DNA from: Escherichia phage EC.W2-6
Length of the DNA stretch: 64,000 nucleotides
Direction: 5' to 3' (one strand)
Sequence record: PP445229.1
Within the stretch, counting starts at the first letter, position 1; each line of letters opens with the position of its first letter. Made by a program: the position numbers and the translations under genes. The notes below the pieces were generated by a model, which saw nothing but the letters and a program-made list of their open reading frames with translations, did not search any database and had not been told where the DNA came from. Of this stretch, positions 224-62,661 are shown in pieces.

Positions 224-2014
224 ATGTCAAAGATCATTTTGGGAGACACAGGTTGTAAGGAATGTATCTCTCATGGTCGTGATAAAACCCACAACCACAT
301 GATTCTCTTCCGTAACGAAGAGACTGGTGAGGAGTGGGGAAGTTGTAACCGTTGTGGGAATTACGAAGTGTTCGAAAAGGGCACTACACCTACTCCAAAC
401 GAGAAGAAAGAGTTATCCCCTGAAGAGTTGAGAGAAGTCTTAGATGATTGCTTAGAGCTTCCTCAGGGTGAACTTACTCGCCGTTTAATCCCAAAAGCTG
501 TATCAGAGCGTTTTGAGTGTCGTATTGGCCTCAGTCAAACTGATGGTCAGACACCAGACAGTTACTTCTTTCCTCGTGAACGTGATGGAAACATTGTCGG
601 ATATGAGGTTAAGCTGCTAGATAGTAAGAAGTTCTATTACGTCGGCAGTGTGAAAGAAGCAGATTTGTTCGGTATGGCACAAGCTCAACGTGGAGATGTG
701 TACAACAAGAAGCTGTTCATTTTTGAAGACCCGCTATCCTGTATGTCAGGTTTCCATGTCCTTACAGCTTTTACAAATGCAACAAACATTAAACCAGCAT
801 GTGTTTCTTTACCGTTCGGTGCAGGTTCAATCTCTTCTGTGTTGTCTCGTAACCGAGACTTCGTAAATGGTTTTGAGGAGGTTGTGCTCTGCATGGACAA
901 CGATGATGCAGGTGAGATAGCTTTAACAAAAGGTCGTTCTTTATTCCCTCATGTTAAGTTTGCTCGTATTCCTAAAGGAACTTTCCCATACAACGGTGTG
1001 GAGAAAGAGATTAAGGATGCGAATGACATGCTTCTGTCTGGTCGTGGTCAAGAGTTATTCAACATTCTCAAGTACTCAGCAAAGCGGGAATCTCCTGCTG
1101 GAGCTGTAACAATCTTTGATTGTCTTGATGATGCTCTGAAGAAAGCGGAGTGGGGTATCCCATATCCGTGGAAGACTCTGAATGAGATGACCTTCGGTAT
1201 TCGATGGGGAGAGGTGGTAGCAATTGGTGGTGGAGTAGGGAGTGGTAAAACACTCATTGCTCACGAGCTGGTTGCCCATCTGTGCTTAGAGCATGGTTTT
1301 AATGGAGGTGGCTTCTTCTTGGAAGAGAAGGTAGGCATGTCTGTTAAGAACATTGCTGGTAAGTCAGCATCAATTCCTTTCCACCGACCTGATGTTGAAT
1401 ATGATGAGGAGGATTTGCGTAATGAAGCACTTCGTTATGCAGACAAATTCTTCTTGTATGACAACTTCGGACAGAACGAATGGGAAGACATTAAACAGTG
1501 TATCCGTTTCTGGGTAGTTGAAAACCAGTGTAAGTTTATCATCCTTGATAACATTACCGCTCTGGTATCTCATTTAACACCTTCAGAGATTAACACTGAA
1601 ATCAGTAAGATTGCTTCCGAGCTTGCTGGTATGTGTAAAGAGTTAGACTTTACCGCTTTCGTGCTATCTCACCTTAATGCTCCGGCAGGTGGTGCTCCTC
1701 ATGAAGAAGGTGGACAGGTACGTGAAGTGCAGTTCACTGGTTCTCGTTCCCTTATGCGTTGGTGTCAGTGTATCATTGGCTTTGAGCGCGACAAGCAAGC
1801 TGATGGCTTAGCTAAGAACCTCTCAGTCATTCGATTACTGAAAGAACGTAACTACGGTCAGACGGGTGTCTGCTATACTAAGTATATCAGTGAAACCGGT
1901 AGACTTGTAGAAAGGGAAGACTTTGAAGTTGATGAAGATAATCCATTCGTTTTAACTAACGGAGAGGATGCAGCTTCTCTCGTCAACCAAGCAGATGGAG
2001 CTTCACCGTGGTAA
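224..2014 (+). CDS. DNA primase/helicase (T7 gp4-like)
   Basis: N-terminal Cys4 zinc motif (CKEC...CNRCG), central TOPRIM-like region, Walker [10 protein letters not shown]; RBS AGGAGGA upstream. Confidence 0.9.
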
Positions 2015-2565
2015 AGAAAAAGAAGAAAGTGTTTGCATTCGATATCGAGAGTAATGCACTGTACGATGACATAACTAAAGTATGGTGTATTTACATCTTC
2101 AATGTTGAAACTGGTGAAAGGTGGGGCTATCGGCCTCACCAAATTGAAGACGGGATTCGTAAACTTACAGAAGCTGATGTGCTCGTTGGTCATAACATTA
2201 TTGACTTCGACTTACCTGCTCTGAAGAAGATGTATCCTTCTTTGATTAAATATCATTTTAACGTCTTTGACACTCTATGTCTTAGTCGATATCTTAAACC
2301 TGACCGTATTGGTGACAGTCCTGAGTATCCGAAAGGCGACCCTAGACATGGCCCAAGAGGTCATGGCTTGAAGCAGTGGGGTGAGTTCTTAGAGGAACTT
2401 AAAGGAGATTACGGTGAGCAAGAGGAAGCATGGGATGCTTTCACTGAAGATATGTTTGCTTATTGTGAACAGGACGTTAACTTAACCGTTAAGGTTTATA
2501 AATACTTGTGTGAACTCACAGGATTCGACCCTTACGACCCACCTTCATTATATTGGAAAATGTAA
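2008..2565 (+). CDS. 3'-5' exonuclease (DnaQ/PolA proofreading domain, stand-alone)
   Basis: DEDD motifs FDIESN (Exo I), HNIIDFD (Exo II), YCEQD (Exo III); start overlaps primase stop. Confidence 0.7.
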
Positions 2566-2566
2566 A

Positions 2567-3928
2567 ATGATTGTTATCCCGATTAACCAAATTGAAGATA
2601 AGGTTTCTCAACAACCTGATATCACTGTTGGTCGTCACTTCATTGAGCAATTGATTAATAACAACTTAATTCCAGACGGTATCTGTCCCATCATTACTGG
2701 TGGGGCTGTTCGAGATGCTGTGCTTAATAACACAGCTCCACATGACATTGATATCTTTATTGTCAGAGGACAAACACCAAGAACTCAAAACACATTCATC
2801 CCAACTGACCGTTGGCAAGCTCTTGGAAGAGAGATTGAAAGTAATGTGAAGGAATGGCTAGAGTCACAAGATATCGAGTATGCATCCCTTCTTGCTGAAG
2901 CTACGAACGAATCCTATGCTGGGGGTTCTCAATTAACATTCACTGATATTATTGAGTTTCAGTGGAATGGGGTTCGTATCCAATTCATGTTTAATTATCC
3001 TACTTCTATTGAAGAGGTATTGGATAATTTTCCTATGATGTGTCGTGGTGCGATGACTCTTGACAATTTATTCATGACTTCTCATGGGTATTTGGCTATG
3101 ACCGCCCCCTGTCCAGTGGTTGTTTCTAGTCGTGAAATCAGATACGTTCACAAGAAGTGGCCTAACTCGCAAGTATTGAGATTTTCCTCTCCAGCAGTTG
3201 CACATCAATACATGGCCCAAACTCGATATCTTCCCACACCCCAGCCGGTTAGTCATCTGGTTAATGGATTAGGTCAGGTTTCTCTTATTGAGGATACAAC
3301 AAGTGCTCAATATTGTGTTAACCGAGACATGAGTCGATTCTTTGGAATCCCTTATGAAGAGATTCAGTTAATGTCAAGCATTCATGGCTCTAGCCAGATT
3401 CGTGCATATTGGTCTGAAGGGTTGACAAACTTAACAACTAATACAGGAGGAGATCTCCTTGGTCGAGAAGATGAACCTAATCGGCACAATGCAATTGAAG
3501 GGGTGTTTGTAGCCCCTGCAATGCGCCGAGCACAAGAGTCACGAAGAGTAAGCCCTACTCGTAGAACATCTTTTGAAGAAGCTCTTGGTATTACAAGTGA
3601 TTCTATGGAGAGATGGATGGCTAGTCCTTCTCGTGGTCGTCCAAATGGTTTAACTGTTAGCGCACGTCAGTTCTCTGGTCAGGGTTTTGCTGTTGGTGAT
3701 ATCAACGCACCTGTTAGGGCTGTGTGGACTGATGAAGGTGTGGCCCAAGATGTGGCAGGTAGTCTTGATGTTCCTTCTCATGAGGAACTTGCTGAGACCA
3801 TCAGTCGAAATCTCGCTGACCGCTTTGTTGCTAACAACCCTGAAGTATTAGAACCTCAAACCCGCACAGTTCGGTTTGCCGATGAAGCGGGTCGTGGAAT
3901 CTCTTTTGACATGGAAACAAACAACTAA
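2567..3928 (+). CDS. nucleotidyltransferase, CCA-adding enzyme/poly(A) polymerase head-domain family
   Basis: GGAVRD...HDIDIFI matches the class II CCA/PAP head motif GGxVRD...DxD; ATG at 2567 adjacent to upstream stop. Confidence 0.55.
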   Translation: MIVIPINQIEDKVSQQPDITVGRHFIEQLINNNLIPDGICPIITGGAVRDAVLNNTAPHDIDIFIVRGQTPRTQNTFIPTDRWQALGREIESNVKEWLESQDIEYASLLAEATNESYAGGSQLTFTDIIEFQWNGVRIQFMFNYPTSIEEVLDNFPMMCRGAMTLDNLFMTSHGYLAMTAPCPVVVSSREIRYVHKKWPNSQVLRFSSPAVAHQYMAQTRYLPTPQPVSHLVNGLGQVSLIEDTTSAQYCVNRDMSRFFGIPYEEIQLMSSIHGSSQIRAYWSEGLTNLTTNTGGDLLGREDEPNRHNAIEGVFVAPAMRRAQESRRVSPTRRTSFEEALGITSDSMERWMASPSRGRPNGLTVSARQFSGQGFAVGDINAPVRAVWTDEGVAQDVAGSLDVPSHEELAETISRNLADRFVANNPEVLEPQTRTVRFADEAGRGISFDMETNN

Positions 3929-3937
3929 GGAATAAGA

Positions 3938-4471
3938 ATGAGTTTACTAGGAAGTGTTGAACTGCACGATGTAATTGACAATGGCTATCTGGATGCGGAG
4001 CATAAGTATGTTAACGCTGCTAGTGTGGATATCCGTATTGGTGATACTATCCTTGTTGAAGAACAGGCTGATGGCATCGTTGATATTGATGCGAAAGAGA
4101 ATCTTCAGTGGAAGGAAGTAAAGATTCCTGAAGAGGGTTTGGTTATCACTCCGGGTCAGTTCTTCTTGGCTCACTCTATGGAGGAGTTTAATCTTCCAGA
4201 TAACATCTCAAGTCTGTTTGTTCTGCGTTCATCTATGGCTCGTTGTGGTTTGAACCATCTCCACGCTGGGTGGGCAGACGCAGGGTTTAATAGCAGTAAG
4301 CTGACATTTGAATTCCATAACGTAACCAAGCATCATAGCTTACGAGTTCGTGCTGGTATGCGTGTTGGTCAGATGGTTATGTTTGAGCACTCTCATGCAG
4401 GGGAGCACTCCTATGCAGTGAAGGGTCGTTATAATAACTCTGAAGGTGTAGTTGCATCTAAAGGTGTGTAA
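3938..4471 (+). CDS. dcd: dCTP deaminase / dUTPase-family protein
   Basis: Motifs VDIRIGD, RSSMARCGL, GWADAGF and C-terminal KGRYNNSEGVVASK resemble Dcd. Confidence 0.8.
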   Translation: MSLLGSVELHDVIDNGYLDAEHKYVNAASVDIRIGDTILVEEQADGIVDIDAKENLQWKEVKIPEEGLVITPGQFFLAHSMEEFNLPDNISSLFVLRSSMARCGLNHLHAGWADAGFNSSKLTFEFHNVTKHHSLRVRAGMRVGQMVMFEHSHAGEHSYAVKGRYNNSEGVVASKGV

Positions 4472-4669
4472 ATGAAAAAGTGGATTGTTCGTGTACATGA
4501 TAACACGACTGGAGAGTTAGTAGCTGTAGATTTTGTTAAGACTCGAGAGCACGCACGTAGGGTCAAAAATCAATACAAATCTACTTTTAGACTTAATAAG
4601 GTTACACTAGGAAAAGCTATCGTGAATAGTGAAGGTGCTTTTTGTGTTAACAGTAAGGTTTATTATTAA
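4472..4669 (+). CDS. small protein, tandem paralog 1 of 3 (C-terminal KVYY)
   Basis: 65 aa; shares TR..AR..K core and C-terminal KV.YY with the next two ORFs. Confidence 0.45.
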   Translation: MKKWIVRVHDNTTGELVAVDFVKTREHARRVKNQYKSTFRLNKVTLGKAIVNSEGAFCVNSKVYY

Positions 4670-4878
4670 TGAGACCGATCACTATGAGACAATTTTGGTT
4701 AGCAAAGATTAAGTGGGCATCAGGTGGTATGACTATGACTGCACTACTCACTCGTCAACAGGCTCGAGATTTTAAAAAGTCTATGTTCAATGTAGACTTA
4801 ACTAAGAGCATCAGTATTCATAAGGCCAAGGAGTATTCTTCTGGTCGTGTTTATATCAGCGGAAAGGTACATTACTAA
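4669..4878 (+). CDS. small protein, tandem paralog 2 of 3
   Basis: 69 aa; TAATG stop-start overlap; ends GKVHY. Confidence 0.45.
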   Translation: MRPITMRQFWLAKIKWASGGMTMTALLTRQQARDFKKSMFNVDLTKSISIHKAKEYSSGRVYISGKVHY

Positions 4879-5087
4879 TGAAAAAGATGTGGGCTATTCA
4901 TGTTGTTTGGGATCTTGAGCAACACATGAGAAAAGATAACATCAAATTGTTTGACACTCGCAAAGAGGCTCGTATTGCTAAGAAACAGTTGAAGACTCTG
5001 GGCACAATAGTAAAAAGCGCTGACATACATCGCTGGTATGAAGACCCTAACACTGGTTCTTTTATGTCTAAAGTAATTTACTACTGA
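4878..5087 (+). CDS. small protein, tandem paralog 3 of 3
   Basis: 69 aa; TAATG overlap; ends KVIYY. Confidence 0.45.
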   Translation: MKKMWAIHVVWDLEQHMRKDNIKLFDTRKEARIAKKQLKTLGTIVKSADIHRWYEDPNTGSFMSKVIYY

Positions 5088-5159: not shown

Positions 5160-5489
5160 ATGTTAGATTTGAGTAAAGTGGCCCCGCCCACTGAAGAGAT
5201 TACAAAATCCAAGGTGATGCAACAGTTTTATCATCGTGATATGCTTGGTCGCTTTATCAAGAATCGTGATGTTGTTGCTTGGTCTATTGGTAATCAGGGA
5301 TATCTGTTGAAGGTTCTTCAGGTTACAGGCTCAACTGCTAAGCGAGTTAAGGTGTATGACCCTGAAATGGGGCGTTCTAAGTCAGTAGACCCACAGAACT
5401 GCATCGTAATTACCCAGCAGGTAATGGATAATATTGCACGTAACGTTGCTAACTCAGTTGAACTTGATGGAGAAAACCCAAATGCATAA
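5160..5489 (+). CDS. hypothetical protein
   Basis: ORF with GGAGAGAG RBS; no recognisable motif. Confidence 0.4.
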   Translation: MLDLSKVAPPTEEITKSKVMQQFYHRDMLGRFIKNRDVVAWSIGNQGYLLKVLQVTGSTAKRVKVYDPEMGRSKSVDPQNCIVITQQVMDNIARNVANSVELDGENPNA

Positions 5490-6045
5490 GAATGTTTTTG
5501 ATTTACCTGAGATTGGTCGTGACAGTTATAGTATGTTAGACCGGTCTGATCTTTCAATCTCTCGCCTTGAAACAATGCAAGGCATGATTAGTGCAAACAG
5601 CCTAGAACACATCCTGAGCTGCTTACAAGCTAACATGGAACTATTGCATATCAAAGCTAAAAACTACCACTGGAACGTCTCTGGTGCAGGATTTCAGGGT
5701 GTCCATGGTATGTTTGATGAGCTGGAAGATTACGCACGACAGGTAGGAGATCGTATTGCTGAACGTATGCGTTACCACTGTGTTAAAGTGGATGCTACAG
5801 CAGCTAATTATCTTTCTCATGCTTGGTTCTCAGAGGGGAATGCTGATCTAGACATGGACGGTATGCTCTCTGATATGTGCATGACCTTGATGTGTATTAT
5901 TGAGAAGATGGATGAGTTTGATGGTGATTTAGCCTCCCACCCTGTCGATCAGAGTATGCTTCAAGAAATTAATGAAGGTCTTGGCAAGTATTGCTACTTC
6001 GTCAAGAGCAACATGTCCCATTCAAGTGGTGACGTGTCTTACTAA
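5482..6045 (+). CDS. Dps/ferritin-like protein
   Basis: KNYHWNVSGAGFQGVHGMFDE...DRIAER parallels the Dps ferroxidase region (HWN..G..F..VHE..D...AER); ATG at 5482 overlaps upstream stop. Confidence 0.55.
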   Translation: MHKNVFDLPEIGRDSYSMLDRSDLSISRLETMQGMISANSLEHILSCLQANMELLHIKAKNYHWNVSGAGFQGVHGMFDELEDYARQVGDRIAERMRYHCVKVDATAANYLSHAWFSEGNADLDMDGMLSDMCMTLMCIIEKMDEFDGDLASHPVDQSMLQEINEGLGKYCYFVKSNMSHSSGDVSY

Positions 6046-6293: not shown

Positions 6294-6569
6294 ATGTCTA
6301 AAGTAATTAAGTTTTATAGCGATCAGTGTGCTCCATGTAAAGCAATGGCTCCTACCTTTGAGAAGGTTGTTAAGGAGTTTGATGTAGAAGTGGAAGAGAT
6401 TAACATCCTTGAAGGTGATGGTCGTGAACAAGCTGTTAAGTATGGTGTACGAAGTATCCCTGCTTTCGTTGTGCCTGACCGTAACAGTGGTGCGCACTAC
6501 AGCCTCTCCGGTATGCAGACTGAAGCAAACCTGAAAGCATTTTTGGACACAGCCCTGAGAAATAAGTAA
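6294..6569 (+). CDS. thioredoxin-like protein
   Basis: Active-site-like CAPCK (Trx WCGPCK) in a 91-aa protein. Confidence 0.7.
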   Translation: MSKVIKFYSDQCAPCKAMAPTFEKVVKEFDVEVEEINILEGDGREQAVKYGVRSIPAFVVPDRNSGAHYSLSGMQTEANLKAFLDTALRNK

Positions 6570-9325: not shown

Positions 9326-9643
9326 ATGGCAGATCATGTAGGAAAGAGAGATTATGCACAAGAAAGACGTACCGCAATTGCCCGTGGTGAGACAGGCGTT
9401 GGGAGCAAGAGCGGAGATGCTCAGCGCCACCGTGCACGTCGCATCGTTGAAAAGCGCGATGGAAAAGCTGCTGTCAGAGGTAAAGACGTTGGACACAAAC
9501 GAGCTGTCAAGTCTGGAGGCTCTAATGCGTCAAGCAACTTACGTGTTGAATCAGTCAGCTCAAACCGTTCAAACGGCGGCAAAAGTGGTGATCGAGCTGG
9601 AAAAGCAAACGGAGCTAGGAAGGGGGCGTTGAGTGGTTCTTGA
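9326..9643 (+). CDS. basic low-complexity protein (Gly/Ser/Arg/Lys-rich)
   Basis: AAGGAG RBS; codon pattern (cgt/ggt/gct/gtt) supports this frame over overlapping 9354..9632. Confidence 0.4.
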   Translation: MADHVGKRDYAQERRTAIARGETGVGSKSGDAQRHRARRIVEKRDGKAAVRGKDVGHKRAVKSGGSNASSNLRVESVSSNRSNGGKSGDRAGKANGARKGALSGS

Positions 9644-10124
9644 TGACACCTTATCTTACGATGCGGTCACAGGTAACCTATATTACACAAAATCTCCTAG
9701 CAAAGGAGTGATGTGGAACAAAAGCCACCCCGGAAAGATAGCTGGATGTATGATATCGAAAGGCTATATCGGTGTGTATTTCCAAGGAAGACGATGGAGA
9801 GCGCACCGACTTATAGCTACGCACTTTATACCAAACCCTAACAATTATCCAGAAGTCAACCACATCAATGGGATAAAAGACGATAATCGACTGGAGAATC
9901 TTGAATGGGTATCCGCTTCTGAAAACATACAACATTCCTTTGATACAGGGTTGAATAAAGGGCACACTCGTGACAATAACGGAATGACCAAATTATCCTC
10001 TGGAGATGTTGTAAAGATTAAACAGATGTATGTGAAGGGTTCTAGGGATTTTGGCTCTAGAGGTCTTGGTAAGTTGTTTGGCGTGAGCCATACAGCTATA
10101 CTCCATGCTTTAAAGGAGCTTTAA
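9633..10124 (+). CDS. HNH homing endonuclease
   Basis: AHRLIA...EVNHINGIKDDNRLENLEW...ENIQHS HNH-type motif. Confidence 0.7.
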   Translation: MVLDDTLSYDAVTGNLYYTKSPSKGVMWNKSHPGKIAGCMISKGYIGVYFQGRRWRAHRLIATHFIPNPNNYPEVNHINGIKDDNRLENLEWVSASENIQHSFDTGLNKGHTRDNNGMTKLSSGDVVKIKQMYVKGSRDFGSRGLGKLFGVSHTAILHALKEL

Positions 10125-11346: not shown

Positions 11347-13191
11347 GTGAGCAACCCGGACGCTCTTCCATTTTTGACAGAGATGACTGTCGCTGATATA
11401 ATCTCTAAGCAAGCAAAGCACGGAGTTAGTTTCAACCGAAGAAATGCTCGGTGGTATGTTCACCTCCTTAAAGAGATTATTGTTAATATTGACAGAGAGT
11501 TGATTCCTCTCTTACCTAAGATGAGATTAGATGGCTCTACTTATATGAAGCCGTTTAAGAAGTCTGGAGCTTTACAGAAGTGGCCTCAAGCTTATTGTGA
11601 TAGGGTTGGGCTGAAAAGAGAAGACATTGGTGGAGCATTCACCTGTGTCGAATATGTAGACTTTGATCCATCGAAAGATGCACGAGTTAAAGAAGCTCTT
11701 ATGGATGAGGGCTTTCTTCCTCCAGAGTTTAACGTATCTAAGAAGCCTTGGAATACTTTCGAAATTAAGAAAGATATGAGAAAGTATGGAACATACCAAG
11801 CATGGTATACTGCTTGGATGCGAGGTAATGCTAAACAGAAGCAGACAGCCGAGATGGTTGACGCTGATATTAGAAAGTTCTTAGAGAAGCATTTTCGGTT
11901 TAAAACTAAGAACTACATGAAGGCTTACGTATTTGGTTTGGGATTAAACCCTAATCGCCGTAATCCTGTAACGTTTGATGAGATTAAGAAAGCACTAGCC
12001 ACATCAAACAAGTGGCCTACAGCTCCTACAAACCTCGAGGAGACTCTTGAAGAAGGGTTAGGGGGTGAGCTAGGGAGTGTCGGAAGTTTGCTTAAGAGAC
12101 GCGTTGTGGCGGCTCACAGGCTAGGTCTTATCAGTGGACTCATAGCAAAGGAACGCGAAGATGGTAAACTTTCGGCAGAAGCTAACAGCTGCGCTACGCC
12201 GACTTTTCGATTCAAACATCGTATCGTGGTTAATATTCCCTCCCGTGGTCTGTTTGGTCACGAGTGTCGCAGTTTGTTTGAGTCTGACTATAACTCAGAC
12301 AGTGATCACTCTCGTCCTTTCGTTATTACTAACGTTGTTCCTGATGGTTGTTATATACGAAAAGGTACTAACGTAATTTACGAGAAAGGTAAGCCGGGGA
12401 AGAAAGACAAACCTGTAGGCGCTTACAAATATTACATACCCACTGGTAAAGAAGTATTCTTAGGGTATGATGGTTCTGGACTGGAACTTCGTATGCTCGC
12501 TCACTACCTCATTAAAGAGTGTAGGGATATGCTTGCTGAGGCAATTGAAGAGAACAACCCAGCTAAGAAAGCTCTGGCAGAACGTGGTTTAGCTTCTGCT
12601 ATTATGTATCGTGATATTCTCCTTGAAGGTGATATCCACTCCCACAACCAGAAACTTGCTGGTCTTCCTACTCGTGACAACGCTAAGACATTTATCTATG
12701 CATTCAACTACGGTGCTGGCGATGCTAAGCTTGGTTCAATTGTAGGTGGTGGGGCTGACGAAGGTTCAGTGATGCGAGCACGTTTCTTAGCAGAGAACCC
12801 ATGTATTGCAATCCTCATTGATCGTATGACAGAGAAAGCTGCTCAAGGATACTTGATTGGAGTTGATGGTCGTAAGATTACAATGAGACGGGATGCCACT
12901 GGTAAGGTTATGGTTCATAAAGCCCTTAACACACTCCTGCAATGTGCTGGTGCTGTTGTTATGAAATATGCTATGATGTTCCTTAACAAGTGGATTGAGA
13001 AAGATAAGGTTCGTTGTGCTAAGGTAATTGATATGCACGATGAAGGTCAATTCTCAGTAAACCGTAATGATGTACAGAAACTCAAAGAGCACACTGAGCT
13101 TTGTGTTAAGAAAGCTGGCGAGTATCTGAACATGGAATGTCCTCTGGCATCTGATTGTCAGATTGGACTTAACTGGATGCATACACACTAA
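11347..13191 (+). CDS. DNA polymerase, family A polymerase domain (T7 gp5-like)
   Basis: DGSGLELRMLAHY (motif A) and GDIHSHNQ...LPTRDNAKTFIYAFNYGAGDAKLG (motif B) closely match T7 gp5; GTG start with AAAGGAG RBS. Confidence 0.9.
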   Translation: MSNPDALPFLTEMTVADIISKQAKHGVSFNRRNARWYVHLLKEIIVNIDRELIPLLPKMRLDGSTYMKPFKKSGALQKWPQAYCDRVGLKREDIGGAFTCVEYVDFDPSKDARVKEALMDEGFLPPEFNVSKKPWNTFEIKKDMRKYGTYQAWYTAWMRGNAKQKQTAEMVDADIRKFLEKHFRFKTKNYMKAYVFGLGLNPNRRNPVTFDEIKKALATSNKWPTAPTNLEETLEEGLGGELGSVGSLLKRRVVAAHRLGLISGLIAKEREDGKLSAEANSCATPTFRFKHRIVVNIPSRGLFGHECRSLFESDYNSDSDHSRPFVITNVVPDGCYIRKGTNVIYEKGKPGKKDKPVGAYKYYIPTGKEVFLGYDGSGLELRMLAHYLIKECRDMLAEAIEENNPAKKALAERGLASAIMYRDILLEGDIHSHNQKLAGLPTRDNAKTFIYAFNYGAGDAKLGSIVGGGADEGSVMRARFLAENPCIAILIDRMTEKAAQGYLIGVDGRKITMRRDATGKVMVHKALNTLLQCAGAVVMKYAMMFLNKWIEKDKVRCAKVIDMHDEGQFSVNRNDVQKLKEHTELCVKKAGEYLNMECPLASDCQIGLNWMHTH

Positions 13192-62585: not shown

Positions 62586-62661
62586 GCGCTCTTAGCTCAA
62601 TGGATAGAGCAGTAGCCTTCTAAGCTATTGGTTACAGGTTCGAGTCCTGTAGGGCGCACCA
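62586..62661 (+). tRNA. tRNA-Arg (anticodon UCU), CCA encoded
   Basis: Cloverleaf by hand: 7-bp acceptor GCGCTCT/AGGGCGC, D-arm GCTC/GAGC, anticodon stem GTAGC/GCTAT with loop CTTCTAA, T-arm ACAGG-TTCGAGT-CCTGT, then ACCA. Confidence 0.85.

What the first reader, a model, noticed from the sequence alone, without database searches (positions are those of the whole stretch)
2567..3928. CCA-adding-type nucleotidyltransferase in a phage that also encodes tRNA-Arg(UCU)
The N-terminus has the GGAVRD...DIDI head-domain signature of class II CCA-adding enzymes and poly(A) polymerases, with a long C-terminal extension. Together with the tRNA gene at 62586 this suggests tRNA 3'-end repair or maturation, for example against host anticodon or acceptor nucleases, or RNA tailing.
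Basis: partly seen in the sequence, partly recalled or inferred. Interest (0 to 1): 0.5.

Follow-up and report, generated by a model that had tools for sequence, protein, structure and literature searches.

The report
Remodelled stand-alone nucleotidyltransferase beside phage DNA polymerase
The gene is real and its front half resembles the catalytic head of CCA-adding enzymes. However, it lacks every other part a CCA-adding enzyme needs, it sits with the phage DNA-replication genes, and nothing ties it to the phage tRNA. It is therefore an uncharacterised nucleotidyltransferase, already annotated as such, and not a tRNA repair enzyme.

Summary
ORF 2567-3928 (+) encodes 453 aa with GGAVRD (aa 45-50) and DIDI (aa 60-63). 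The tRNA-Arg(UCU) gene lies at 62586-62661.

The window is a phiEco32-like Kuravirus, and the gene is the orthologue of phi32_73, already annotated 'nucleotidyltransferase'.

**What argues against a CCA-adding enzyme:**
- Only motif A aligns.
- The Pfam head-domain score is below threshold.
- Motif B (RRD..N), motif D (EDxxR) and the body and tail domains are absent.

**Active site.** The DxD pair is invariant. Two Asp residues that are invariant in seven sampled members of the sister family (phrog_1614) are an invariant Gln139 and Pro156 here.

**Family and context.** The family is small (32 representatives among 1.84 billion). It always lies between the split family-A polymerase's exonuclease subunit and dCTP deaminase. 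Sister-family genes lie within two genes of the DNA polymerase gene in nine of ten Autographiviridae sampled, and the one genome scanned whole has no tRNA gene.

**The tRNA.** It encodes its own CCA and matches heavy AGA use.

**Verdict.** Fold assignment is right. The tRNA repair reading is unsupported. Function is unknown, with a replication-module accessory most likely.

The parts
2567..3928 (+). Nucleotidyltransferase ORF, 453 aa plus TAA stop; orthologue of phiEco32 phi32_73 and SU10 gp74
   Evidence: Full-length match to phrog_12715 at E=4e-262. The SU10 orthologue was detected by mass spectrometry (PMC4281155).
2567..2671 (+). N-terminal strand plus helices (aa 1-35) preceding the head domain
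   Evidence: AF2 model: pLDDT above 95, E2-5, H10-14, H17-31.
2672..3004 (+). Head domain (aa 36-146), Pol beta-type nucleotidyltransferase fold closest to the class II CCA/PAP head
2699..2716 (+). GGAVRD (aa 45-50), first half of motif A
   Evidence: G45, G46, R49 and D50 are invariant in 75 of 75 sequences that cover them. They align to GGAVRD of E. coli CCA.
2744..2755 (+). DIDI (aa 60-63), the two metal-binding aspartates of motif A
   Evidence: D60 and D62 are invariant in 74 of 74. They align to D21 and D23 of E. coli CCA.
2945..2947 (+). Asp127, always acidic in the family; a candidate substitute third carboxylate
   Evidence: 64 D plus 10 E in 74 sequences.
2981..2983 (+). Gln139, invariant, at the position of the invariant Asp (hDhL) of the sister family phrog_1614
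   Evidence: Q in 74 of 74. Aligned to that Asp, with identical spacing to the next motif (16 residues).
3032..3034 (+). Pro156, invariant, at the position of the motif-B Asp (RRD of class II; FDxxxNQ of phrog_1614)
   Evidence: P in 72 of 72. Alignments.
3005..3436 (+). Family-specific C-terminal alpha/beta subdomain (aa 147-290)
   Evidence: pLDDT is mostly 80-97. Only 147-170 residues of the roughly 290 folded residues align to class II enzymes.
3131..3163 (+). R-[ED]-x-x-Y-x-x-K-K-W-P motif (aa 189-199) on helix 188-197
   Evidence: Position 190 is always E or D (48 E, 25 D). Y193 and K197 are invariant in 73 of 73.
3437..3925 (+). Disordered tail (aa 291-453). It varies in length and sequence between genera and carries indels within Kuravirus.
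   Evidence: pLDDT is 32-47 except for the helix. Other family members are 274-490 aa long. Indel modules are seen. dN/dS is 0.13-0.20.
3779..3835 (+). Predicted amphipathic helix in the tail (aa 405-423)
   Evidence: DSSP H405-423, pLDDT 57-70. The segment is absent from several Kuravirus orthologues and only partly conserved in other genera.
2008..2565 (+). Upstream neighbour: 3'-5' exonuclease subunit of the split family-A DNA polymerase. Its stop codon lies one base before the nucleotidyltransferase ATG.
   Evidence: Pfam DNA_pol_A_exo1 at E=1.3e-9. Junction sequence. Same order in all relatives examined.
3938..4471 (+). Downstream neighbour: dCTP deaminase
   Evidence: Pfam DCD at E=3.5e-34. 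Conserved synteny.
11347..13191 (+). Polymerase subunit of the split family-A DNA polymerase, about 9 kb downstream of its exonuclease subunit
   Evidence: Pfam DNA_pol_A at E=2.5e-23.
62586..62661 (+). tRNA-Arg(UCU), with genomically encoded 3' CCA
   Evidence: ARAGORN. The sequence ends ...GGGCGC-A-CCA.

Best explanation
**What it is.** The ORF encodes an expressed early or middle protein. Its first ~290 residues form a stand-alone Pol beta-superfamily nucleotidyltransferase descended from the class II (CCA-adding/poly(A) polymerase) head domain. A ~160-residue disordered tail follows and is under selection. It is not a canonical CCA-adding enzyme.

**Lineage.** It belongs to a small family so far found only in phages (phrog_12715). 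That family is sister to the minimal nucleotidyltransferases of T7-like phages (phrog_1614). Genes of both families sit beside the family-A DNA polymerase gene.

**Most likely mechanism.** It probably still binds an NTP or dNTP with Mg2+ through the invariant GG...RD...DxD motif. I propose that it acts as an accessory of the replication and nucleotide-metabolism module, transferring a nucleotide without a template to a nucleic-acid 3' end, with donor or acceptor specificity altered by the remodelled active site (Gln139, Pro156). Maintaining the phage tRNA is less likely.

**Shown:** fold, motifs, family limits, synteny, selection. **Inferred:** catalytic activity, substrate, and partnership with the polymerase.
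For: **Fold and descent.**
- AF2 model with pLDDT above 90 over most of aa 1-290.
- Profile links: family to phrog_1614 at 93.8% probability, E=2.8e-8 over 190 columns. phrog_1614 to class II at 96.2%, E=2.4e-9.

**Likely still an enzyme.** G45, G46, R49, D50, D60, D62, Y117, Q139, P156, Y193 and K197 are invariant, and positions 127 and 190 are always acidic. This holds across sequences that have diverged to about 19-34% identity.

**Small and phage-borne.** Only 32 representatives were found among 1.84 billion proteins. Every family member whose source was examined lies in a phage genome or a phage-like contig.

**Link to the replication module.**
- The order primase/helicase, PolA exonuclease subunit, nucleotidyltransferase, dCTP deaminase is kept down to 25-30% identity.
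- phrog_1614 genes lie within two genes of the DNA polymerase gene in nine of ten Autographiviridae genomes sampled (the tenth was not resolved). They are upstream in phiAS7, Ahp1, K59PH2, EspYZU13 and PPWS4, and downstream in PM16, SU503, VP93 and PP1.

**Expression.** The SU10 orthologue was detected by mass spectrometry (PMC4281155).

**Tail.** It is under purifying selection.
Against: - No activity has been measured for any member of either family, and no paper in the library characterises them.
- Adjacency may only reflect the compact, inherited layout of podophage middle-gene modules.
- Start/stop abutment is common between phage genes, so it is weak evidence for a complex.
- All characterised class II enzymes act on RNA 3' ends, which favours a free RNA-tailing role.
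- Gln at the presumed third-carboxylate position and Pro at the motif-B Asp could mean loss of catalysis.
- I could not inspect the model's coordinates. The geometry of D60, D62, D127, Q139 and E190 is therefore unknown.
Confidence: 0.4

Rival explanations
1. tRNA 3'-end repair or maturation. The enzyme re-adds C, C or A to host or phage tRNAs whose CCA end is missing or has been attacked by host nucleases.
For: - Motif A is of the class II CCA type, and CCA enzymes are among the best sequence and fold matches.
- The phage and its relatives SU7 and Bas91 carry one tRNA-Arg(UCU).
- The CCA-adding enzyme is the second most common RNA-repair enzyme in several groups of jumbo phages (PMC7824862).
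Against: - Motifs B, D and E and the body and tail domains that select C and A and hold the tRNA are absent.
- The Pfam score is below the cut-off.
- The tRNA gene encodes its own CCA and is explained by 19% AGA usage.
- Kuraviruses are reported to carry 0-1 tRNAs (PMC6563267).
- Sister-family phages are roughly 40-kb podophages; phiAS7, the one scanned whole, has no tRNA gene.
- No RNA ligase, polynucleotide kinase or RtcB partner is annotated.
- Real phage CCA enzymes belong to other PHROGs (2244 and 24229). The listed examples are mostly large phages of roughly 85-380 kb.
Confidence: 0.1
2. Free-standing RNA-tailing enzyme of the poly(A) polymerase type. It tails host or phage transcripts to drive their decay, for example to recycle ribonucleotides for DNA synthesis.
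For: - All characterised class II enzymes extend RNA 3' ends (established knowledge).
- The gene lies in a nucleotide-metabolism neighbourhood with dCTP deaminase, ThyX and thioredoxin.
Against: - There is no neck or body domain and no basic RNA-binding C-terminus. The whole protein has net charge -18 and pI 5.0.
- The motif-B Asp, which in class II enzymes contacts the ribose, is an invariant Pro.
Confidence: 0.17
3. Pseudoenzyme or scaffold. This would be a nucleotide-binding but catalytically dead nucleotidyltransferase fold that serves as a structural or regulatory subunit of the phage replisome, with the disordered tail as an interaction hub.
For: - Gln139 replaces the Asp that is invariant in the seven phrog_1614 sequences aligned, and Pro156 replaces the motif-B Asp.
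- The long disordered tail is under purifying selection.
- The gene is fixed next to the polymerase exonuclease subunit.
Against: - GG, R49, D50, D60 and D62 remain strictly invariant at 19-34% overall identity, which is unusual for dead nucleotidyltransferases.
- Two further always-acidic positions (127 and 190) could complete the metal site.
Confidence: 0.15
4. DNA-modification enzyme. It nucleotidylates or otherwise marks phage DNA (or uses dNTPs), which would account for the resistance of Gordonclarkvirinae to restriction-modification systems.
For: - The BASEL authors report strong restriction resistance with no known modification pathway or inhibitor. They point to the dCTP deaminase plus nucleotidyltransferase pair (PMC11990801).
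- The window is not depleted of several tested sites: 34 EcoRV, 8 EcoKI and 110 EcoP1 sites.
- Loss of the ribose-contacting motif-B Asp could relax sugar specificity (the role of the residue is from established knowledge of class II enzymes).
Against: - I know of no DNA hypermodification pathway that uses a Pol beta-type nucleotidyltransferase (own knowledge).
- dCTP deaminase plus ThyX is ordinary dTTP supply.
- An 'anti-restriction nuclease' gene is annotated in relatives.
- Sister-family genes occur in many T7-like phages that are not known to be modified.
- No nucleoside analysis exists for these phages in the papers found.
Confidence: 0.1
5. Anti-defence enzyme that nucleotidylates a host protein or small molecule, by analogy with MNT antitoxins or the nucleotidyltransferase-like anti-Gabija protein Gad2.
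For: - Phage middle genes often encode counter-defence proteins (own knowledge).
Against: - No PADLOC family match.
- The fixed position within the replication module of a whole subfamily is unlike the variable accessory loci typical of anti-defence genes.
Confidence: 0.08

Closest known systems
Class II CCA-adding enzymes and bacterial poly(A) polymerase I (E. coli Cca and PcnB; PDB 1miv, 3h37, 3aql, 4wby, 1ou5; Pfam PF01743)
   Same: - Motif A, GGxVRD...DxD.
- The Pol beta-type head fold.
   Different: - Only about 150-170 residues superpose, at 13-17% identity.
- There is no RRD..N (motif B), no EDxxR/RxxRF (motif D), no motif E, and no body or tail domain.
- The Pfam score is below the gathering cut-off.
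- The protein has its own alpha/beta C-terminal subdomain and a disordered tail.
phrog_1614: stand-alone ~170-215-aa 'PolyA_pol head' nucleotidyltransferases of Autographiviridae (e.g. phiAS7_00003, Ahp1 gp19, PM16 gp16, SU503 gp19)
   Same: - Homologous by profile-profile comparison: 93.8% probability, E=2.8e-8, 190 columns.
- Foldseek TM of 0.5-0.6 against the BFVD models.
- The gene lies beside the family-A DNA polymerase gene.
- No function has been characterised.
   Different: - The seven phrog_1614 sequences aligned keep an invariant Asp in hDhL and a motif-B-like FDxxxNQ. This family has an invariant Gln139 and Pro156 at those positions.
- This family adds a ~75-residue extension of the folded domain and, in many members, a long disordered tail.
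Bona fide phage-encoded tRNA nucleotidyltransferases (phrog_2244 and phrog_24229; e.g. Aeh1 ORF289c, KpS8 gp188, 121Q gp539)
   Same: They are phage-encoded, of class II lineage, and share motif A.
   Different: - They show 31-56% identity to E. coli Cca in the listed rows (one weak pcnB-like outlier at 26%), with motifs A-E intact.
- The listed examples are mostly large phages of roughly 85-380 kb.
- The window protein matches neither of the tRNA-nucleotidyltransferase PHROGs (2244, 24229) that the Aeh1 enzyme matches. No Kuravirus appears among the 40 listed rows of the E. coli Cca tblastn at E<=1e-8.
NP_344798.1 of Streptococcus pneumoniae (PDB 2la3), a stand-alone CCA-adding-enzyme head domain of unknown function
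   Different: It is bacterial and 191 aa long, and its fold similarity is lower than that of full-length class II enzymes. No sequence link was found here.

Membership tests
Class II CCA-adding enzyme (tRNA nucleotidyltransferase) | Motif A: GGxVRD followed by DxD (NTP and two-metal binding) | tested here: met
   GGAVRD is aa 45-50 and DID is aa 60-62. They align to G7, G8, R11, D12, D21 and D23 of E. coli Cca and are invariant in the family.
Class II CCA-adding enzyme (tRNA nucleotidyltransferase) | Pfam PF01743 (PolyA_pol head) at or above the curated gathering score | tested here: not met
   20.4 bits against a cut-off of 23. Relatives score 18.8-21.9 or do not match. There is no NCBIfam match.
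Class II CCA-adding enzyme (tRNA nucleotidyltransferase) | Third acidic residue on the beta-strand after the head hairpin (E of EYALAR in E. coli Cca) | tested here: inconclusive
   Sequence alignment to class II is unreliable in this region. Against the sister family, the equivalent invariant Asp is an invariant Gln139. Position 127 is always Asp or Glu and might substitute.
Class II CCA-adding enzyme (tRNA nucleotidyltransferase) | Motif B, RRDxxxN (ribose recognition) | tested here: not met
   R90, R91, D92 and N96 are invariant in the class II reference set. The aligned family positions are F/M155, P156 and a variable residue 160.
Class II CCA-adding enzyme (tRNA nucleotidyltransferase) | Motif D, EDxxR...RxxRF (protein template selecting CTP and ATP), and motif E | tested here: not met
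   D131, P132, R134, R137, R140, R176 and E180 are invariant in the reference set. No alignment reaches them and no such conserved residues exist in the family.
Class II CCA-adding enzyme (tRNA nucleotidyltransferase) | Helical neck, body and tail domains that bind the tRNA acceptor and T-arm | tested here: not met
   Only 147-170 residues superpose on 340-520-residue enzymes. Residues 147-290 form a mixed alpha/beta subdomain and 291-453 are disordered.
Class II CCA-adding enzyme (tRNA nucleotidyltransferase) | Adds C, C and A to tRNA 3' ends | not testable with these tools
   This needs an in vitro assay.
Pol beta-like nucleotidyltransferase superfamily | alpha-beta-alpha-beta-alpha-beta core with hG[GS] and [DE]h[DE]h motifs | tested here: met
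phrog_12715 (phage 'nucleotidyltransferase') | Full-length profile match | tested here: met
   E=4.1e-262, residues 1-453 against profile positions 1-457.
phrog_1614 (minimal nucleotidyltransferase of T7-like phages) | Profile match, plus the residues invariant in the seven sequences aligned (GG..R, DxD, D of hDhL, FDxxxN) | tested here: not met
   The two families are homologous. However, the D of hDhL is Gln139 here, and the D and N of FDxxxN are Pro156 and a variable residue. It is a sister family, not a member.
phrog_1614 (minimal nucleotidyltransferase of T7-like phages) | Gene adjacent to the family-A DNA polymerase gene | tested here: met
   The window gene directly follows the PolA exonuclease subunit. 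Nine of ten sampled phrog_1614 genes lie within two genes of the polymerase gene.
Bacterial poly(A) polymerase I | Head plus neck plus body architecture with a basic RNA-binding C-terminal region | tested here: not met
Defence-associated nucleotidyltransferases (MenT/AbiEii, CD-NTases, MNT) | Match to a PADLOC model, or closest fold | tested here: not met

The most novel reading that the evidence does not exclude
The remodelled active site (third-carboxylate position Asp to Gln, ribose-contacting motif-B Asp to Pro) marks a switch from RNA to DNA chemistry. On this reading the protein is a polymerase-coupled deoxynucleotidyl- or nucleotidyl-transferase that tails or covalently marks replicating phage DNA. 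It would then be the missing factor behind the unexplained resistance of Gordonclarkvirinae to restriction-modification systems, and the first DNA-directed offshoot of the class II CCA/PAP lineage.
Probability: 0.1. Interest if true: 0.75.

Novelty: new variant of a known kind. Interest (0 to 1): 0.35.

Why it matters
As annotated, the gene is ordinary. It has been labelled a nucleotidyltransferase, or 'class II CCA-adding enzyme domain', since the phiEco32 and SU10 genomes were described.

Three things are worth knowing:
- The CCA/tRNA label should not be propagated.
- This family and the larger phrog_1614 family (found in 177 phage records) together form an uncharacterised set of minimal class II-derived nucleotidyltransferases that stay next to the family-A DNA polymerase gene in podophages. 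That points to an unrecognised accessory activity of T7-like replication modules.
- The Kuravirus branch has invariant substitutions at two active-site positions.

Kuraviruses are used as therapeutic phages and are unusually resistant to restriction systems. BASEL isolates now grow on E. coli K-12, so a knock-out and biochemical test is feasible.

Tried and rejected
- **Word-indexed homologue searches.** They returned only close relatives of at least 79% identity, plus one to four distant ones. The exhaustive search was needed to define the family.
- **Single-sequence PDB search.** Nothing was found.
- **NCBIfam and PADLOC.** Nothing was found.
- **AFDB50 fold library.** It was not available.
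- **Charge argument.** The core is acidic (pI 4.5-5.1) in 22 of 25 family members. However, the head plus neck of genuine CCA enzymes is also acidic (pI 5.2-6.2 in six of seven). Acidity therefore does not argue against RNA binding, and I dropped the argument for the core. The contrast with the basic PAP I stands.
- **tRNA co-occurrence within the subfamily.** SU7 and Bas91 also carry tRNA-Arg(UCU). Shared descent explains this equally well, so the test does not discriminate.
- **The EDEPNR stretch in the tail (near aa 318).** I considered it as a possible motif D. It was rejected because it lies in the disordered region and is not conserved outside Kuravirus.
- **E104 as third carboxylate.** HMM and hhalign alignments place the IEY strand (aa 103-105) opposite the class II EYALAR strand, which would make E104 the third carboxylate. 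It was rejected because that position is not conserved in the family and the preceding aligned segment is a helix in the model.
- **A fused exonuclease-nucleotidyltransferase AF2 run.** It was not attempted. The tool returns no inter-residue error, so an interface could not be judged.
- **The phiEco32 genome paper (PMC2587145).** It is not held.
- **PF26128.** It is listed in precomputed annotations for many orthologues, but hmmscan did not reproduce it at E<=1, and I could not identify it.
Full report
**Identity of the window and check of the observation**

The window is 100% identical over 2.5 kb to Escherichia phage EC.W8-1, with TH06 essentially identical (one mismatch by bit score). It is 92-96% identical to many phiEco32-like phages of genus Kuravirus, subfamily Gordonclarkvirinae.

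The ORF listed mechanically is 2510..3928 from a GTG. The ATG at 2567 lies one base after the TAA of the upstream gene, and annotated orthologues start at the equivalent ATG. This gives 453 aa.

GGAVRD is aa 45-50 and DIDI is aa 60-63. The combined pattern occurs once in six frames of the window and in none of 200 shuffles. ARAGORN finds a single tRNA, tRNA-Arg(UCU), at 62586-62661.

The gene is phi32_73 of phiEco32, annotated 'nucleotidyltransferase'. [quoted passage not shown] It matches phrog_12715 over its full length at E=4e-262.

**How far the resemblance to CCA-adding enzymes goes**

By sequence, it does not go far:
- Pfam PolyA_pol matches aa 43-124 at 20.4 bits, under the curated 23 bits. 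Orthologues score 18.8-21.9 or nothing.
- NCBIfam gives no match, and phmmer against the PDB gives none.
- An exhaustive phmmer of the first 265 residues against 1.84 billion representative proteins found only 32 proteins. All but two weak partial hits (E>1e-5) are members of the same family, and none is a recognisable CCA enzyme.
- A profile of 25 family members (A1) hits a CCA-adding enzyme (6ibp) at E=0.0023, over motif A and a poorly supported continuation.
- The same profile aligns 23 columns to E. coli Cca.
- It aligns 62 columns, at 63% probability, to a reference alignment of E. coli Cca, PAP I and six phage CCA enzymes (A3).

By structure, the picture is clearer. An AlphaFold2 model built on A1 has pLDDT above 90 for most of residues 1-290. 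It has pLDDT below 50 for most of 294-453, except a helix at 405-423.

So the head is of class II descent. The rest of a CCA enzyme is not there. The reference set has the following invariants: R90 R91 D92 N96 (motif B), D131 P132 R134 R137 R140 (motif D) and R176 E180 (motif E). None has a counterpart in the family, whose invariants after the head are Q139, P156, Y193 and K197.

**A bridging family and a remodelled active site**

Searching the model against viral structure predictions returned short (167-215 aa) phage proteins labelled 'Poly A polymerase head domain'. They come from phiAS7, Providencia PS3, Vibrio VEN and others, with TM of 0.5-0.6 on the target. phiAS7_00003 belongs to phrog_1614 at E=2e-37, a family that the window protein also touches weakly at E=1.2e-7.

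I collected seven phrog_1614 proteins and ran two profile comparisons:
- Family against phrog_1614: 93.8% probability, E=2.8e-8, 190 columns.
- phrog_1614 against class II: 96.2% probability, E=2.4e-9, 135 columns. Here its invariant FDxxxNQ lies on motif B, RRDxxxNA.

This gives a transitive, well-supported line of descent from class II, through phrog_1614, to this family.

Two residues change along that line:
- The invariant Asp of phrog_1614's hDhL strand is the best candidate for the third metal carboxylate. It aligns with Gln139 here, with the same 16-residue spacing to the next motif.
- The motif-B Asp aligns with Pro156.

Among 77 family sequences held, Q139 is present in 74 of 74 that cover it and P156 in 72 of 72. 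G45, G46, R49, D50, D60 and D62 are also invariant. Positions 127 and 190 are always Asp or Glu.

I could not read the model coordinates. I therefore cannot say whether D127 or E190 completes the metal site. The pattern (nucleotide and metal-binding motif strictly kept, two neighbouring catalytic or ribose-contacting positions replaced and then frozen) reads as a change of specificity more than as decay. A pseudoenzyme is not excluded.

**Genomic context**

The gene sits between the 185-aa 3'-5' exonuclease subunit of a split family-A DNA polymerase (DNA_pol_A_exo1, E=1.3e-9) and dCTP deaminase (E=3.5e-34). A T7 gp4-like primase/helicase lies upstream. ThyX, thioredoxin, a Dps-like protein and the PolA polymerase subunit lie downstream.

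The order primase/helicase, exonuclease, nucleotidyltransferase, dCTP deaminase is preserved in every relative examined. These include SU7, two metagenomic phage contigs at about 30% identity, and an IMG/VR contig at about 30% identity.

Independent support comes from the sister family. tblastn of phiAS7_00003 finds 177 phage records; those listed are almost all 40-46-kb podophages. In nine of ten genomes sampled the gene lies within two genes of the DNA polymerase gene:
- Immediately upstream in phiAS7, Ahp1, K59PH2, EspYZU13 and PPWS4.
- Immediately downstream in PM16 and SU503.
- One gene downstream in VP93, and two genes downstream in PP1, where one of the two is an HNH endonuclease.
- In the tenth genome, Tapenade, the match lies at the end of the record.

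Adjacency to the polymerase gene therefore survives at least one change of gene order within Autographiviridae, and it recurs in Gordonclarkvirinae. This is association only. Podophage replication modules are compact and inherited, and abutting start and stop codons are usual in phages.

**The tRNA**

- The tRNA gene ends GGGCGC-A-CCA, so its CCA is encoded.
- In 28 large ORFs of the window, AGA is 19% of arginine codons, or 9.5 per 1000 codons. AGA is rare in E. coli (own knowledge), which is the usual reason phages carry tRNA-Arg(UCU).
- Similar tRNA genes occur in 1181 phage records of many kinds.
- SU7 and Bas91 also carry the tRNA, which fits shared descent.
- Korf et al. report 0-1 tRNAs among kuraviruses (PMC6563267).
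- phiAS7, with a sister nucleotidyltransferase, has no tRNA.
- No RNA ligase, polynucleotide kinase or RtcB is annotated in Bas91 or SU7.
- Bona fide phage CCA enzymes exist. E. coli Cca finds 428 phage records at E<=1e-8, and the listed examples are mostly large phages of roughly 85-380 kb. No Kuravirus appears among the 40 listed rows, and the Aeh1 example falls in phrog_2244.

Nothing specific links this gene to the tRNA.

**The tail**

Residues 291-453 are predicted disordered. Family members range from 274 to 490 aa, and the tail does not align between genera. Within Kuravirus it carries modular indels.

It nevertheless evolves under purifying selection. dN/dS is 0.20 against phiEco32 and 0.13 against Bas91. 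The corresponding values for the folded domains are 0.09-0.15 against phiEco32 and 0.06-0.07 against Bas91. This fits an interaction region with short linear motifs, though no partner was identified.

**What it most likely does**

All characterised class II enzymes extend RNA 3' ends without a template. The conserved motif A argues that this protein still binds a nucleotide triphosphate with metal.

My best reading, at confidence 0.4, is an accessory nucleotidyltransferase of the replication and nucleotide-metabolism module. It would act on a nucleic-acid 3' end, with specificity changed by the Gln139 and Pro156 substitutions.

The rivals, in order:
- Free RNA tailing of the poly(A) polymerase type: 0.17
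- A catalytically dead scaffold: 0.15
- tRNA CCA repair: 0.10
- DNA modification: 0.10
- Protein or small-molecule nucleotidylation for counter-defence: 0.08

The DNA-modification idea comes from the BASEL authors. They found Gordonclarkvirinae strikingly resistant to restriction systems without a known mechanism, and they pointed to the dCTP deaminase and nucleotidyltransferase pair (PMC11990801). The window does carry many EcoRV, EcoKI and EcoP1 sites, so site avoidance does not explain that resistance. No nucleoside analysis was found, and dCTP deaminase with ThyX is ordinary dTTP supply.

**Novelty and verdict**

The gene and its fold assignment are already in the databases, and no paper in the library characterises it. 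The new points are these:
- The negative result on CCA-enzyme membership.
- The definition of a small family, found so far only in phages, with a frozen, remodelled active site.
- The link to a much larger uncharacterised family that tracks the DNA polymerase gene in T7-like phages.

I rate it a new variant of a known kind, of moderate interest (0.35).

Noticed in passing
window 2008-2565 and 11347-13191: The family-A DNA polymerase is split. A 185-aa 3'-5' exonuclease subunit and a 614-aa polymerase subunit are encoded about 9 kb apart, with nucleotide-metabolism genes and an HNH endonuclease (9633-10124) between them. The same split is seen in distant relatives.
   Followed up: partly
window 4472-5087: Three tandem small ORFs of 65, 69 and 69 aa look like diverged paralogues. 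They share TRxxAR..K and a C-terminal Y, and one pair aligns by BLASTP at E=0.001. None has a Pfam match.
   Followed up: partly
whole window: Some palindromic sites are strongly depleted: CCWGG 3 against 88 expected, GATC 121 against 248, PstI 0 against 17, BamHI 1 against 10, KpnI 0 against 7, GGCC 57 against 114. EcoRV sites (34 against 16) and CAGCAG (85 against 35) are over-represented. Site avoidance therefore cannot explain the reported resistance to EcoRV, EcoKI and EcoP1.
   Followed up: partly
window 62586-62661 and 28 large window ORFs: The tRNA-Arg(UCU) gene encodes its own CCA. AGA makes up 19% of Arg codons (9.5 per 1000 codons) in 28 large ORFs.
   Followed up: yes
L001 1-3438 (phiEco32), L003 and L004 1-5400, L011 22883-31257 (Bas91): A conserved cluster lies upstream of the primase/helicase in relatives. 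It contains amidoligase, COOH-NH2 ligase, a class II glutamine amidotransferase, an ATP-grasp (RimK-like) enzyme and gamma-glutamyl cyclotransferase. It looks like a peptide or amide-ligation pathway of unknown target, and could also be relevant to the restriction-resistance question.
   Followed up: no
window 6294-6569 and 5434-6045: A phage-encoded thioredoxin and a Dps/ferritin-like protein lie within the T7-like replication module. T7 DNA polymerase uses host thioredoxin as its processivity factor (own knowledge), so this phage may bring its own.
   Followed up: no
L012 36921-39020 (phiAS7): phiAS7 carries a sister-family nucleotidyltransferase. It also encodes a P-loop kinase-like protein, a PNKP-type HAD phosphatase (E=1.3e-15) and a metallophosphoesterase in a row. 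With the ATP-dependent ligase next to the nucleotidyltransferase, this resembles a nucleic-acid end-healing and sealing set.
   Followed up: no
L003 13456-13992, L004 13975-14511: Distant relatives encode a 178-aa protein with a faint Macro-domain hit in the same module.
   Followed up: no
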